A stretch of 63,139 nt of DNA, filler included, from Parachlamydiales bacterium (GTDB taxonomy: Bacteria > Chlamydiota > Chlamydiia > Chlamydiales > Parachlamydiaceae): NCBI GenBank assembly GCA_020051075.1. It is 4 parts of 4 records of this genome, joined end to end, with 100 filler letters (N's around TTAATTAATTAA, not from the genome) between each part and the next. Parts side by side here need not be neighbours in the genome. Positions count along the whole stretch, not along the records: positions 1 to 18,542 come from JAGVJP010000092.1; 3 more parts are not named here. One strand, written 5' to 3'. The position numbers are program-made. Shown here one piece after another: positions 12,001-18,000 of this stretch (positions are counted from its first letter, which is position 1; each line of letters starts with the position of its first letter).

Positions 12001-15000
12001 TTTCCTTTCATCCAAACAGAATCATTCTTGATTTCCCGCGATGCATATTGAAAGACGATGATCAATGCCAATCCGCCGATCAACATATTCGTTCCCATGA
12101 CCATAGGGACTAAAGCATCAATCAAGTGAGAGGCATTTCCCATGCAGAACAACATGGCAATCATTGTCACCGCAAAAATTGTGGCGGACACAGCTCGTTT
12201 GCGAGAGGTCTGAAATTCAACCTCTATATTCCCTGCAATACTTTCGACGATCGAAAAAACTCCTGTTATTCCAGCAATGAAAATGCAGAAGAAGAAAATA
12301 ACCCCGACCAGTTGTTCTAAAAATGGTCCGAAAAATTTCAATATGTGCGGGAAGACAATGAATCCGATCTCGAACGTTGAGTCACTCGTCAATATGGATT
12401 CAAACGGGATCTGTTGTATATAGCTGACGTGCGCTAAGCAGCCGAAGATGACAGATCCGGCAATAAATGAGACTGCAAAGTCGCCTAAAGCGACATACAT
12501 CATCGCTTTTGGAACATTGATTGTTTTACCGGTGTGCCGAGAATAGCCTACAACGATCCCTAAGCCCAATGACAGGCTGAAAAACAGCTGTCCAAAGATA
12601 TCTCTCCACAGTCCAGGATCGGACAATTTTGTGAAATCGGGCTTCAAGTAATAATACCAGCCATCAATCCCACCAGGCAGGAAATTCACTATAATGGCGA
12701 ATACAGTCATGATGACAACAAGCAAAGGCATAAAAACGGAGCAAATGCGCTCTATTCCATCTCTGACATTTCTCGATAATACAAACCAGGTCACCACCGC
12801 AACAGCTATCGTTGAGATGAAGATGGGGATCGAGAGCTGTCCAAAATCTCCAATGCCTGATGTTGTCTTCAGGAAGGAATGAATAAAAAAGCTCTTCGCA
12901 TCTTCAGGAATGGCATTGACAGCAGAAAAATAGGTATAAGCGACGGAATAGCCAGTTAAAACGATATAAAATCCACCAATAGACAAGCAAGCCAGCACAG
13001 CGAGCCATCCCAATGTCTTTCCAGCCCTTCCCCAAACACTGCCATAAGCTGACACAAGAGGAGATTTCATCCGATGGCCAATGATCCCTTCTAAAATCAG
13101 TAAAGGGACGCCTAAGATGAACAGAGCCATGCAGTAGGGGATGAGGAAGGCTCCGCCGCCATTTTTGTATACTTGCGCGCTAAAGCTGAGGATATTGGCA
13201 AATCCAACGGCAGATCCGATTAATGACCAAATAAACCCTGCCTGACTTCGCCATGTGGTGTCAGCACTATTTTTATTGTTCGACATATGAAACCCTTATA
13301 CAAATTCTAGTTAAAAAAAACACTTAAGCAATGTGAGCACCTAAGGTGCATAATACTTCAATATGTTCTTGCAAGCGTTGCAAGTAAAACTATTCGCAGA
13401 AGAAGCGGTTTGCTCATTCATGAAATAGGGAAAAATGATTCAACAAATAATGAGAATTTAGCTTTATAAGCTAAGAAGGAAAAGAGAGAGAAGGGGTAGA
13501 GACAAGGCACAAAAAGAACTCGACGTGGATTTAGAAGGTATTGATTGCTCAAATACTTTTGTAGAATTAATAGTAGACATAGCCTTAAACTCCTTAATTT
13601 AGCTCCTGAATTATACTAGTTTATTGCTATTTTTGTCTACACATTTTTTTTATTCTAACAGATAAGCTTCCAGAAGAGTTGCGCATTGTTCCAAACTTTT
13701 TTGATGGGTAATTTCATATCCATGAGTGTTTTCAACAGGAAAACAGAGTAATGCCGCTTTAGCTGTCTGCCCTCTGCTGTAAGCTAGAGAGGCATCAGAC
13801 CCATAGCCTTCCCATATGGCACATTGTGGTTCCAGGCCAAGAGTCTTTCCTAAGAACATCAGCCTGTCGCTGATTTCTTTATCGTATAACGCAACAGAAT
13901 CTTGATAGACAACAATTGGGGAGGGGCTGAGTACAGTTTGATATTCCTTGGCGACAGGACCAACATCGACAGCAAGTGTGATTTCTCCTGGGAGGGTGCG
14001 CGCAGCGTAGGAAGCTCCATGGGCTCCAATTTCTTCGGAACAGGTAGCCACAAAGTAAATATCTCTCTTAGGCTTCCTTTTGCTTGAGTGCATTTTTTTC
14101 AATGCTGTTAAAGCAATGAAGATAGCGGCTCGATTATCCAAAAAATAGCCAGCTACGCAATCTTCGAAGAGATGTAGTTGACGCCTCGATTGAGCAATGA
14201 CCACTCGTGTTCCTGGGTGAACTCCTGCATCTTTAAGTTCGCTTGGAGTTTTTCGAGTCACAACAGTCACATCAGCCCAAACGGGGGTTTTACCCTGACC
14301 TCTGTTTTCTTCGGGGACCATTTTATTAATCGTGGGAGATTCTTTCGAAGTATGCATGCAGCCAAAAGAAAGGACTCCGGAAGAGAGTTCATTATCCCCT
14401 AAAATATCTACAGGGCCCTGTCCAAACGTGAAGGGGAAAATCCCTCCTAACGGGTTGACTCTAAGGGAGCCGTCTTCATTAATTCTCTTGACAATCAGTG
14501 AAAGCTCGTCCATGTGTACCATGACGCGTATCGCTTCAAGATTTTTTTCACTTCCTGAAATTTTACCAATCACATTTCCTGCAGGGTCAATCCAGGTGTC
14601 ATCCACGAGAGATTTGAGTTGTTTATGACACAACGTACGCACTTCATCTTCTTCTCCAGAAGGACCTCGAGCACTCACTAATGCTTGCAATAGCTTGATG
14701 TTTTCTTCACTTTTCATGCGATGATTCTCCTGTGGGTCGATGCCTTCCAAAATAAGGATCGAAATGAAAACCTAGATGCTGTTCATCATGAGAATGATCA
14801 ATAGATTCCCTAGAGTGACGTGAACGATCAAAATCGCGATGAGGGTTCATAAATAATTCAACTATTTCATCAGTGATGAGGGCGCGTGCTTCTTGATGCT
14901 CTTTTACAACCTCCCAGATCACTTCAGTCACTCTTTTTTTAATCTCTGAAGTCATCATTCGTCCTGACTGGTACTCGTGGGCGATATGTTTTAGTTCAGC

Positions 15001-18000
15001 ATCATCATCAAGAAAATAGAGCAGGTAATGATAAGGGACATCAACAGCAAGATTAGCTCCTTTTTCAATGTGCTCTTGTTTTGTCATCCCTCCGCCTGAA
15101 AAAGCTTTTTCACGAATTTTCTTAGCCACGGTTTCGCGGGGGTCGTTCATAAAAATGACCTCTTTTTCTCCAGTAGAGCTGGCTTTGTCGTGGGCTTGTT
15201 CGAGGCTGGGAAGAAAACGGGATTGAATCGTCGCAGGCTTTTTAAAACCGAGCTTCTGACCAATTTCACGGGCCATTTTAAAATACGGGTATTGATCTAT
15301 CGCCATAGGAACCAGGCAGAATATCTGCTCCCCTTTGAAGATATTGTCAAAAGAGGTGCTGAAAGCTGGGGCAGCTTGAAAACAAGGCCAGCTGAATTGA
15401 CCGACGCTGTTGTTGTAGTCCAACCCATAAATTCCATGAATCATATTTCCTGACGTCTGCTTCATGATCAGCACAATATTGCGATAGAGGGACCCTCCAA
15501 CCGTTTCCAAATTAGAAAAAATCCAAGTTTTCTTTGGATTGAATCCGCAAGCGATAATATCTTTCGCATTTTGTCGAGTCAGCCGGTTAGCTTCTTCGAG
15601 GGAAAGAGAATCTTTGAAGTAGTATTTTTCATCATCAGTCATCTGAACGACTACAATGGCGTTGAAGGCCTCTTGGAGATATTTTGTGAACATGAAAGGG
15701 ATCATATGTCCGAGATGCAGCGATTCAGAGCTTGGCCCTCGGCCTGTGTATAAGTAAATTTCTTCTCCACGCTCATATGCATCAAGGGCAAGATCGAGAT
15801 CTTTGTGAGAGAAGAAGATTCCACGGCGCAACCATGGATGCGCGTGCATTTTCGTCACTTTTTCAAAACGACGTATTAATTTCCCATCGATAGGTTGACA
15901 ACCAAATTGGTTGATCAATTTCAAATAATCAATCCCTGTTGTCGATGTTACTTCCCAAGGGGTAATTTTTGTATTTTCTTCCATCATTAAATCCTGCTGT
16001 CTCTCTTGAAAACTAAGTGATGACTTGTCATAATGCTATTGGCTTCCGGTAAGCCAGAAGGTGGATTGTACCACAATGATGCCATTGTCAGAAAGGCGAA
16101 ATCATAACAAGATGGGGAGAGTATGAAAAAAATAGCATGGGAAAAATCACCACAGAAATTAATCGATAGCTTTTATCATGTCATGGAGTCATTTCCAGAT
16201 GCTGAATTACGGAAAATGTTTGGCTATCCCTGTGCATTTTTTAATGGAAATATGTTTGTAGGATTACATGAAGACAATTTAGCGGTAAGACTTGATGTTG
16301 AGGAACGTGAAAAGGCATTGCAAGAGGGGTGGGGGAATGTATTTGCTCCTATGGCTGGCAGAGTTATGAAAGAATATGTCGCGCTCTCGGAAGAAATGAT
16401 TAATAGCAAAGATGATTTGAGAGAAGTGATTGAAAAATCATTTAATTACGTTAAAACTATCCCAGCAAGGATAAAGAAAGAAAAAACCAAATCGATCTCA
16501 AAAAAGAAGATATTATTTAAATAATACTATTAGGTATCATAAGTCGAATCAATATAAGGTAAAATAAAATGTCGAATGAAAGACTTACTTCTTTAGGGGT
16601 ATCGTTAGTTGGTTCAATGATGGTAGCCATTGTTGCTCGAAATACTTATTCAATGGCACCTCAAGTTTTTTTAGTTTCAGCGGTTGCGGGCTTCATCTTT
16701 GGTGTGATTTCCAGTCTATGCATTAATTTCAGACTCCCTAAACTTGGGCATTTCATCTATCCGCTGGGTATCGGTTTTTCGGCAATAACATCTCTTGACA
16801 TGTTCGGTCGATTACATGGAAGCATCATTGGCAATTGGGAATTTTTCCAGAATCGAGTCATTAGCAATGTAGGAGCAGTTACAGGTTTTACAGCAGGTTT
16901 TCTTTTAGGACACGTTGCTCTCAACTGCCAAGGATAATTGCCCTGGAAGTCTTAATCTACAAAATTCTGTAACATCTTGGTGATATAGTTGTTTAGGCTT
17001 TCTCCTTGAAGCTGAGCGGCAAGAGACAGCTTGGCGTGCAAGTTAGGAGGGATGCGTAGATTGAACTTCCCTGAAAATGGTCTCTCCGGTTCTTCATCCC
17101 TTTCCTTGCAAAAAGCAAGATAGTCATCGACAGAATCTTTAAATGCTTGTTCTATCTCATCAACAGTTGTTCCCTGGAAAGTGACCACATCTTTAATGCC
17201 AAGCACTTTTCCATGAAAGATTTTAGCCTCATCATCATATTCAACATGACCTGTATAGCCTTTATATTTCATCATGGTTTTGCTTCTAGTGTGCGCTGGT
17301 GTTTCTTGTTCATACCTTTGTAGTACCAAATTTTAGTATTATCGTCAAATTCAGATATAGCAAAAATCAAAAAGGAGTCAATAAGTTCGCCGTCAGTTCC
17401 TATTTTTTCACCGTCTCATCTCATTCCTGGACAGCTAAATTCTTACGCTGTAACCTGTATCTGACCTAGATTAAGATATTTTAAGGAAATCATTGCTCAT
17501 GGAGAAACTCATTGCAGGCATTCACAAGTTTCGGAAGGAAGAGCTTGGGAGGTATCAGAGGTTATTCCACCGCCTCTCGCGAGAAGGGCAAAATCCTCAC
17601 ACACTATTCATTACCTGTTCCGATTCACGGGTATTGGCGGAGTTAATCACACAAAGCCAACCGGGCGATCTCTTTGTTGTGAAGAATGTCGGCAATATTG
17701 TTCCTCCTGCCGATGTTCGTGGCAGCACGAATTCAACAGCTGCTGCCATCGAATTTGCCGTGCAAACGCTTGGTGTCAGCGATGTGGTCGTTTGTGGGCA
17801 TTCGTTATGCGGAGCGATGGCAACATTGCTGTGCGGCATACCTGAGGATGAGGCAATGCCGCATTTGCATGACTGGCTTGAATTGGCATCGCCGGTGAGG
17901 AAGCTCATCGAGAATGACTATGGGCATCTCACCGACCACGATGCACGTACAACCGCCGCTGCGGAGGAGAATGTGCTGTTCGCTCTAGAAAATCTGCATA

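What a model noticed while it worked through the whole genome (the two positions that open the first line are those of the whole stretch)
14707..15984. Sole TrpRS is the eukaryote-cytosolic type, nearest to giant-virus enzymes; the bacterial TrpRS is gone
The only tryptophanyl-tRNA synthetase is a 425-aa eukaryote-cytosolic-type enzyme that has displaced the bacterial one. It belongs to a tight clade found patchily in Parachlamydiaceae whose closest named outside relatives are giant-virus enzymes, yet tRNA-Trp keeps the bacterial G73 discriminator.
Evidence so far: Top five Swiss-Prot hits are cytoplasmic TrpRS, 49-51%; PDB hits eukaryotic at E 1e-119. One TIGR00233 match in G000. Orthologues (79-87%) in 5 of 72 family genomes, each the only TrpRS match in its genome and in a different gene context; four other genomes have one bacterial-length match instead. 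After ~90 hits at 70-92% identity the next tier (52-59%) includes Catovirus CTV1 TrpRS, 56%. tRNA-Trp ends in G73 in G000 and 14 of 14 relatives. Flanking genes are bacterial. No paper listed.
(Added by a program. Inside this text positions count along the whole contig: they may not be those of the stretch shown here. "Call 12" and the like, gene names such as g00115 and contig names such as C1 are that model's own, and its searches are not shown. The text may have been shortened before it was handed on; [...] marks where a part breaks off. The agent that wrote the report below was given it as the finding of a first reader that could run no searches.)

Follow-up and report, generated by a model that had tools for sequence, protein, structure and literature searches.

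The report
Giant-virus-type tryptophan enzyme replaces bacterial one
Some environmental chlamydiae have lost their own enzyme for loading tryptophan onto tRNA and use a eukaryote-type version whose closest relatives belong to giant viruses; it often sits in the very spot of the lost gene, and it must work with an unchanged bacterial tRNA that such enzymes normally read poorly.

Summary
Real, and wider than reported. Window 14707-15984(-) encodes an intact eukaryote-cytosolic-type TrpRS (PDB E 5e-119; model rmsd 1.1-1.3 A to human). It is the only TrpRS in G000, and the ancestral tyrP-trpS-uvrB slot is empty inside a 51-kb contig. The clade occurs in 19 other Chlamydiota genomes, in at least four families (10 of 399 sampled), and none has an intact bacterial trpS. 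In 11 of 20 carriers it occupies the slot of the displaced bacterial gene (two different slots; at least three separate swaps at one of them). One carrier keeps a decayed bacterial trpS. Trees place the clade with giant-virus TrpRS (97/99; grouping with cellular eukaryotes apart from the viruses rejected, AU p=0.001), with a shared C-terminal tail. Nested versus sister is unresolved (AU p=0.41). tRNA-Trp is G1:C72/G73 in 16 of 16 carriers and 30 of 30 non-carriers; one giant-virus bin has A73. So the enzyme, not the tRNA, crossed the published G73/A73 barrier; clade-fixed changes on acceptor-contacting helices are candidates. Not found in my paper searches. Activity is untested.

The parts
14707..15984 (-). 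trpS, eukaryote-cytosolic-type tryptophanyl-tRNA synthetase, 425 aa (a second in-frame ATG at 15987); sole TrpRS of the genome
15907..15930 (-). N-terminal helix alpha1' (D19, K22, Q26 = human Asp99, Lys102, Arg106), the A73-reading element of eukaryotic TrpRS; retained
   Evidence: alignment; residues from PMC1538984; D 28/28, K 27/28, Q 21/28 in the clade
15706..15717 (-). HIGH motif (HLGH)
   Evidence: sequence
15436..15438 (-). H183 (= human Lys264, helix alpha6, acceptor-arm contact region): His in 26 of 28 clade members, Lys/Arg in 38 of 40 virus-like relatives
15289..15303 (-). AIDQ motif followed by Y232 (= human Asp314, equivalent of B. subtilis Lys149): Tyr in 28 of 28 clade members, mostly Asp in virus-like (24 of 40) and other rows (7 of 10)
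15172..15186 (-). KMSKS-equivalent loop, here K-A-S-S-T; Met-to-Ala in 28 of 28 clade members against Met in 38 of 40 virus-like and 10 of 10 other rows
14746..14823 (-). C-terminal tail (residues 388-413, ending GFxFDPYF) shared with giant-virus TrpRS; ordered in the model (pLDDT 82-88 for 391-410); not aligned to any solved TrpRS
13650..14717 (-). M42 aminopeptidase gene; its ATG (14717) and an AGGAG site lie inside the last codons of trpS (11-nt overlap); probably co-transcribed; not seen beside the gene in other carriers
15988..16122 (.). intergenic region between trpS and a divergent TfoX-N gene; one weak sigma-70-like site on the minus strand (16129-16101, 9 of 12), site count no higher than chance

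Best explanation
The gene is the working, essential TrpRS of this chlamydia. Steps: (1) a eukaryote-type trpS of the giant-virus TrpRS clade entered one environmental chlamydia once, probably in a co-infected protist (single origin shown; viral donor inferred). (2) It became able to charge the resident G1:C72/G73 tRNA-Trp without change in the tRNA (that it must charge it follows from one enzyme and one tRNA; the role of the clade-fixed changes H183, Y232, A268 is inferred). (3) It then spread sideways among chlamydial families and the bacterial trpS was lost each time, in 11 of 20 genomes with the new gene left in the old gene's slot (pattern shown; route inferred: insertion beside the old gene or recombination through flanks, then loss). 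(4) The likely benefit is escape from bacterial-TrpRS inhibitors such as indolmycin, or better use of scarce host tryptophan (speculative).
For: Sole TrpRS and empty slot tyrP--uvrB, 200 bp, inside a 51-kb contig. 19 of 19 other carriers lack an intact bacterial trpS; G014 keeps a 212-aa decayed bacterial trpS without HIGH motif just before uvrB. In situ: L010 tyrP-trpS-uvrB, L018 trpS-uvrB, nine loci divergent from the pkn kinase gene exactly as bacterial trpS in non-carriers. The pkn tree forces 3 changes (3-3 over bootstraps); G009 (carrier) is sister to G200 (non-carrier) at 99/99, and its TrpRS is 86% identical to G002's although their pkn is 53%. Clade 100/100; clade plus virus-like 97/99, SH-aLRT 96 under C20 and 99 with 89 rows; held with cellular eukaryotes apart from the viruses rejected, p-AU 0.0013. 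Tail profile hits 51 of 56 virus-like rows and 1 of 132 rows outside. Virus-like rows include Catovirus CTV1 and IMG/VR and GVMAG records, in loci of mostly 19-39% GC. tRNA acceptor stem is the same in carriers and non-carriers; giant-virus bin G421 has A73.
Against: Nested position is not proven: viruses held together without the chlamydial clade are not rejected (p-AU 0.41); nesting support is only 87/93 and SH-aLRT 90, and is open. Most virus-like proteins are unnamed, and of the rows treated as cellular eukaryotes only P0124 (a plant) carries a name; some may be viral (P0144 has the tail). The A73-reading residues are retained and the bacterial G73-reading Glu was not gained (position 236 is Arg/Lys in 28 of 28), so no clear G73 reader is visible. 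The virus-built tail profile passes E<0.01 in only 8 of 25 chlamydial rows, though the FDPY/F end is plain in the alignment. Only one viral tRNA-Trp was seen. G000 is 5.7% contaminated. No expression or activity data.
Confidence: 0.7

Rival explanations
1. Donor was an unsampled protist: viruses and chlamydiae each took the tailed TrpRS from one host lineage, so the chlamydial clade is sister to the viral clade, not derived from it.
Against: No tailed TrpRS from a named eukaryote among 132 outside rows; the contexts that could be read are virus-like; the virus-like set was monophyletic in 0% of 200 bootstrap trees.
Confidence: 0.2
2. No adaptation was needed: the enzyme still prefers A73 and charges G73 tRNA slowly, which slow-growing chlamydiae tolerate because their tRNA-Trp already had the eukaryote-like G1:C72 pair.
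For: G1:C72 in 30 of 30 non-carriers, so it predates the gene; helix alpha1' residues unchanged; the human enzyme is 91-fold slower on B. subtilis tRNA, not inactive (PMC12135181).
Against: The first pair is reported as a minor element only (PMC1538984); repeated spread and loss of the native gene fit an enzyme at least as good; the clade has a long stem (0.25-0.29) with fixed changes on the acceptor-contacting helices.
Confidence: 0.3
3. Not repeated displacement but long coexistence: ancestors held both genes side by side and descendants lost one or the other.
For: Within genus g64 both the bacterial type-B gene (SH-aLRT 94, 4 of 5 rows) and the eukaryote-type gene (99/98) form genus-level groups; G014 shows that a phase with both genes existed; G323 holds the bacterial gene plus two 3' fragments of the other.
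Against: 0 of 20 carriers hold both genes intact; only 10 of 399 genomes carry it, which would need very many losses; identity across families (84-86%) exceeds that of the resident type-A TrpRS across families (65-73%), though the two enzyme types may evolve at different rates.
Confidence: 0.15
4. Reverse flow: a chlamydia took the gene from a protist and passed it on to giant viruses.
For: Unresolved backbone.
Against: The chlamydial clade is shallow (70-92%) on a long stem while the virus-like set is far more diverse; no virus-like row falls inside the chlamydial clade.
Confidence: 0.04
5. Binning artefact: viral or eukaryotic contigs placed in chlamydial MAGs.
For: All carriers that carry a title are MAGs; G000 has 5.7% contamination.
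Against: Gene flanked by chlamydial core genes in 11 genomes, one on a 1.1-Mb contig; ancestral slot empty in G000; contig composition and repeats match.
Confidence: 0.01

Closest known systems
Eukaryotic cytosolic TrpRS (human WARS1, PDB 2AKE, 1R6T; PMC1538984)
   Same: 47-49% identity in the structural alignment, same fold (rmsd 1.1-1.4 A), N-terminal domain with Asp99/Lys102/Arg106 equivalents, HIGH and AIDQ motifs.
   Different: Encoded by a bacterium as its only TrpRS; paired with a G73 tRNA; Asp314 is Tyr, KMSAS is KASST; extra ordered tail of about 25 residues.
Giant-virus TrpRS (Catovirus CTV1; nucleocytovirus TrpRS clades of PMC11304981)
   Same: 52-59% identity over 95-99% of the length, shared tail, one supported clade.
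   Different: That paper lists only eukaryote-virus exchange for TrpRS and prokaryote-to-virus cases for other synthetases; 'chlamyd' occurs 0 times in its text and in the one supplement held (tree figures not seen). Which of its clades matches was not tested. Viral genes often neighbour IDO; the one viral tRNA-Trp seen has A73.
TrpRS-A of CPR bacteria (PMC5370408)
   Same: An archaea/eukarya-type TrpRS in bacteria by lateral transfer.
   Different: TrpRS-A is DPANN-related, comes with its own A73 tRNA-Trp and ORF1, and appears to coexist with bacterial TrpRS. Here: eukaryote/virus branch, no imported tRNA, no conserved partner gene, native enzyme gone.
Xenologous gene displacement in situ (concept recalled; one search gave a listing only)
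   Same: A foreign equivalent ends up in the slot of the resident gene.
   Different: Here the two genes are only about 23-28% identical, it happened at two unrelated slots, and at least three times at one of them.

Membership tests
Eukaryote/archaea-type TrpRS | N-terminal domain with helix alpha1' (Asp99, Lys102, Arg/Gln/Glu/His106) | tested here: met
   D19, K22, Q26
Eukaryote/archaea-type TrpRS | Class Ic catalytic motifs (HIGH, AIDQ, KMSKS loop) and fold | tested here: met
   HLGH, AIDQ, KASST; Z 54, rmsd 1.1-1.3 A
Eukaryote/archaea-type TrpRS | Branches inside eukaryotic TrpRS when rooted on archaea | tested here: met
Eukaryote/archaea-type TrpRS | Cognate tRNA-Trp has A73 | tested here: not met
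   G73 in 16 of 16 carriers with a recovered tRNA
Eukaryote/archaea-type TrpRS | Charges tRNA-Trp with tryptophan | not testable with these tools
   inferred from being the only TrpRS
Giant-virus (tailed) TrpRS clade | One supported clade with viral enzymes | tested here: met
   97/99, 96; alternative rejected p-AU 0.0013
Giant-virus (tailed) TrpRS clade | C-terminal G-x-x-F-D tail | tested here: met
   alignment; profile hits 51 of 56 virus-like, 8 of 25 chlamydial at E<0.01, 1 of 132 outside
Giant-virus (tailed) TrpRS clade | Nested inside the viral sequences (derived from a virus) | tested here: inconclusive
   87/93 and 90 for nesting; p-AU 0.41
Bacterial-type TrpRS | No N-terminal domain, about 330-350 aa, Glu that reads G73 (E. 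coli Glu155) | tested here: not met
   425 aa with N-terminal domain; Lys at the equivalent position; 23% identity to chlamydial bacterial-type TrpRS
TrpRS-A (CPR/DPANN) | Operon with A73 tRNA-Trp and ORF1 | tested here: not met
   no tRNA in the window; no neighbour shared by all carriers; single G73 tRNA-Trp in G000
TrpRS-A (CPR/DPANN) | Sequence membership of the TrpRS-A clade | not tested
   no TrpRS-A sequence was in hand; the query branches with eukaryote/virus rows, away from the archaeal rows used

The most novel reading that the evidence does not exclude
A giant virus gave bacteria a core translation enzyme. The virus-derived TrpRS evolved to read the bacterial G73 discriminator through changes outside the known A73-reading helix, and it outcompetes the native enzyme often enough to have replaced both chlamydial TrpRS types, repeatedly and in place, across at least four families.
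Probability: 0.45. Interest if true: 0.88.

Novelty: new variant of a known kind. Interest (0 to 1): 0.78.

Why it matters
Published work treats tRNA identity (G73 against A73) as the barrier that keeps eukaryote-type TrpRS out of bacteria; the known exceptions import their own A73 tRNA and appear to keep the native enzyme (PMC5370408). Here the barrier was crossed on the enzyme side only, in about 20 genomes, which hands over a natural set of substitutions to test how discriminator specificity is rewritten, of direct use for orthogonal TrpRS/tRNA engineering. If the donor is viral, it is a virus-to-bacterium transfer of an essential translation gene, a direction not listed in the giant-virus synthetase survey read here (PMC11304981). 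It also warns that trpS is not a safe marker gene in Chlamydiota.

Tried and rejected
Viral-contig scan with the query alone found nothing; alignments were needed. Six viral records were not held for tRNA search, including Catovirus; only G421 gave a tRNA-Trp. Host tree from tuf/secE/nusG shows carriers scattered (13 changes, 6 forced) but has four long rows and two half-filled rows; I rely on the pkn tree instead (4 of 26 loci dropped for lack of the motif). The 89-row careful tree did not finish; its quick tree is quoted; bootstrap had not fully settled. A tRNA-side change was sought position by position: none separates 16 carriers from 26 non-carriers of equal length. A register shift giving A73 is rejected: the base after G73 varies. 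IDO is not in G000 (the control genomes gave no positive). trpB: 0 of 5 carriers over the cut-off, not compared with non-carriers. ESM Atlas gave only eukaryotic TrpRS clusters. The first fold job was of the Catovirus protein (first row of A1); the query was folded. Earlier scan findings were not available. Paper searches listed nothing on a eukaryote- or virus-type TrpRS in chlamydiae; most subscription journals are not covered.
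Full report
Observation. The minus-strand ORF 14707-15987 is intact. Its best solved relatives are human and other cytosolic TrpRS, E 4.8e-119, and the predicted model (mean pLDDT 92) overlays human TrpRS at Z 54, rmsd 1.1-1.3 A over residues 4-389. PF00579 gives two matches in G000, this gene and a locus I take as TyrRS; a chlamydial bacterial-type TrpRS finds only this gene, at 23%. Contig C2 belongs with the genome by tetranucleotide profile and shared repeats, and the gene's GC3 is ordinary. Neighbours are bacterial: an M42 peptidase overlapping the stop by 11 nt, an SNF transporter, a divergent TfoX-N gene.

The bacterial gene is really gone. In relatives with the type-A bacterial trpS, uvrB lies beside it in 11 of 12 loci, usually as tyrP-trpS-uvrB. 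In G000 tyrP ends at C31:16718 and uvrB starts at C31:16920, inside a 51-kb contig, with no trace of trpS between them. An assembly gap cannot explain this.

Range. A scan of one genome per species gave 59 loci: 19 clade members at 74-87% and 40 archaeal-type matches at 34-50%. Titles include Parachlamydiaceae, Rhabdochlamydiaceae and Waddliaceae. Of three titled Verrucomicrobia, two share coordinates with Chlamydiota genomes (G016 = G124, G018 = G179) and the third groups with G018 by pkn. Among 399 other Chlamydiota scored (one more could not be scored), 10 carry it: 2 of 46 in the window's family, 1 of 23 in f3, 6 of 90 in f9, 1 of 5 in f10. All 19 have it as their only TrpRS over the cut-off, and a bacterial query finds no intact bacterial trpS in them; several are incomplete MAGs. 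G014 keeps a 212-aa decayed bacterial trpS, HIGH motif lost, directly before uvrB. G323, one 2.6-Mb contig, has the bacterial gene and two decayed 3' fragments of the eukaryote-type gene (41-54% to clade members): a fifth family once held it.

Replacement in place. Chlamydiota have two bacterial TrpRS types, 45% identical: type A at tyrP/uvrB and type B near a pkn kinase gene (pkn within the fetched stretch in 19 of 22 type-B loci; 34 of 35 loci gave a sequence). The eukaryote-type gene sits in tyrP-trpS-uvrB in L010, before uvrB in L018, and divergent from pkn in nine loci; it lies elsewhere in 8 genomes including G000, and one is cut off. So 11 of 20 carriers hold it in the slot of the gene it displaced, at two unrelated slots. 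On the pkn tree (22 rows) carrier state needs 3 changes in every bootstrap quoted; carrier G009 is sister to non-carrier G200 at 99/99, and its TrpRS is 86% identical to that of G002 while their pkn is 53%. Across families the enzyme is 84-86% identical, type A 65-73%. This fits sideways spread. With 23-28% identity between old and new gene, recombination within the gene is unlikely; insertion next to the old gene, or exchange through flanks, followed by loss is the inference.

Origin. After 89 clade members at 70-92% comes a tier at 52-59%. Its only names are Catovirus CTV1 and 'viral metagenome'. Its contexts are giant-virus-like: IMG/VR and GVMAG records, mostly 19-39% GC. A 213-row FastTree puts the 25 chlamydial rows (100) inside an 81-row clade (97) with these sequences. 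IQ-TREE with an archaeal root gives 97/99 for chlamydial plus virus-like rows and rejects holding the chlamydial rows with the cellular eukaryotes apart from the viruses (p-AU 0.0013); a C20 mixture model gives 96. A tail of about 25 residues is shared: the profile hits 51 of 56 virus-like rows and 1 of 132 outside rows; it was not among the columns of the trees. Nesting inside the viruses has 87/93 and 90, but viral monophyly without the chlamydial rows is not rejected (p-AU 0.41). Rows called eukaryotic are mostly unnamed. I put a viral donor at about 0.7.

The tRNA did not move. G000 has one tRNA-Trp, between tuf and secE on C46, with G1:C72 and G73. The same ends occur in 16 of 16 carriers with a recovered tRNA (4 of 20 gave none) and 30 of 30 non-carriers (1 of 31 gave none), and no position separates the groups. 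Giant-virus bin G421, whose TrpRS (L134) falls in the group next to the clade, has G1:C72 and A73 (one case). Papers: A73 is the major element for human TrpRS, read by Asp99, Lys102 and Arg106, and G73 clashes with them (PMC1538984, passages and one section); human TrpRS is 91-fold less efficient on B. subtilis tRNA, and bacteria read G73 with Glu155 (PMC12135181, passages).

Mechanism. One enzyme and one tRNA mean that the enzyme charges G73 tRNA well enough for life (inference). It keeps the three A73-helix residues and has not gained the bacterial Glu. What is fixed in the clade and rare in its viral relatives includes Y232 (human Asp314, which PMC1538984 equates with B. subtilis Lys149, a tRNA-recognition residue), H183 (human Lys264, in acceptor-contacting helix alpha6), and D266-K-A268 in the KMSKS loop. 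I propose that these let the G73 end enter the active site, helped by the G1:C72 pair that chlamydiae already had; probability about 0.45, against about 0.3 for an unadapted, slow but tolerated enzyme. For selection, indolmycin and chuangxinmycin inhibit bacterial TrpRS and barely touch the human one (PMC12135181); no trpB over the cut-off was found in 5 of 5 carriers tested, and viral relatives neighbour a tryptophan-degrading IDO gene, so low-tryptophan performance is a second idea. Both are speculation.

Comparison and novelty. PMC5370408 (abstract through discussion read) states that archaeal/eukaryotic TrpRS had not been found in bacteria, and reports TrpRS-A in a few CPR bacteria with an imported A73 tRNA beside the native pair. 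This case differs on branch, tRNA and loss of the native gene. PMC11304981 (passages and the one supplement file held; figures not seen, so tip labels may bear on this) lists no virus-to-prokaryote synthetase transfer. A 2026 preprint on TrpRS history has no mention of chlamydiae (passages). Searches listed no report of this clade. The enzyme is a member of a known family and displacement of synthetases is a known process, so I rate it a new variant of a known kind, with high interest for the barrier crossed, the probable viral donor and the repeated replacement in place.

Noticed in passing
L134, L135, L145, L159, L165, L168, L170, L175, L177, L196 and others (upstream of the TrpRS gene): An indoleamine 2,3-dioxygenase gene (PF01231) lies within 4 kb upstream of the virus-like TrpRS in 22 of 54 non-chlamydial loci checked (two pairs are duplicates; many loci are short) and in 0 of 29 chlamydial loci: a conserved giant-virus IDO-TrpRS pair that degrades and uses tryptophan side by side. 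One paper search listed nothing on it.
   Followed up: partly
L068-L081, L388-L407: Chlamydiota hold two bacterial TrpRS types, 45% identical, at different loci (tyrP/uvrB in f1, f3, f4, f10, f12, f41; pkn in f8, f9, f20, f30), so an older replacement of trpS also took place.
   Followed up: partly
L064:3280-3462 and L065:3226-3439 (G323): Two decayed 3' fragments of the eukaryote-type trpS, each beside a copy of a 506-aa AAA-ATPase gene within a 1.7-kb duplication at 96% identity; the genome keeps its bacterial trpS.
   Followed up: partly
L066:2898-3536 (G014): Decayed bacterial trpS still an open 212-aa frame, without HIGH motif or middle part, fused in place before uvrB.
   Followed up: partly
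L039, L040, L042: Archaeal-type TrpRS in contigs of MAGs titled as bacteria; the neighbouring genes look archaeal, so probably misbinned contigs (judged by eye, not searched).
   Followed up: partly
window 18543-18642, 28218-28317, 53217-53316: The window is a scaffold with three N gaps joining genome contigs C2, C3, C5 and C7; many contig ends share a repeat of about 200-300 bp.
   Followed up: no
window 8208-9302 and 19135-20724: An HD-domain/NUDIX fusion protein and a triple-GNAT acetyltransferase (weak AAC(6') similarity, far below the cut-offs).
   Followed up: no
window 51558-51984: Tandem repeat with a period of 156 bp at about 90% identity.
   Followed up: no
L368-L387 (G421:C1, 20.1-28.3 kb): Cluster of at least 19 tRNA genes in the giant-virus bin, a few kb from its TrpRS locus on the same record set; includes tRNA-Trp with A73.
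   Followed up: partly
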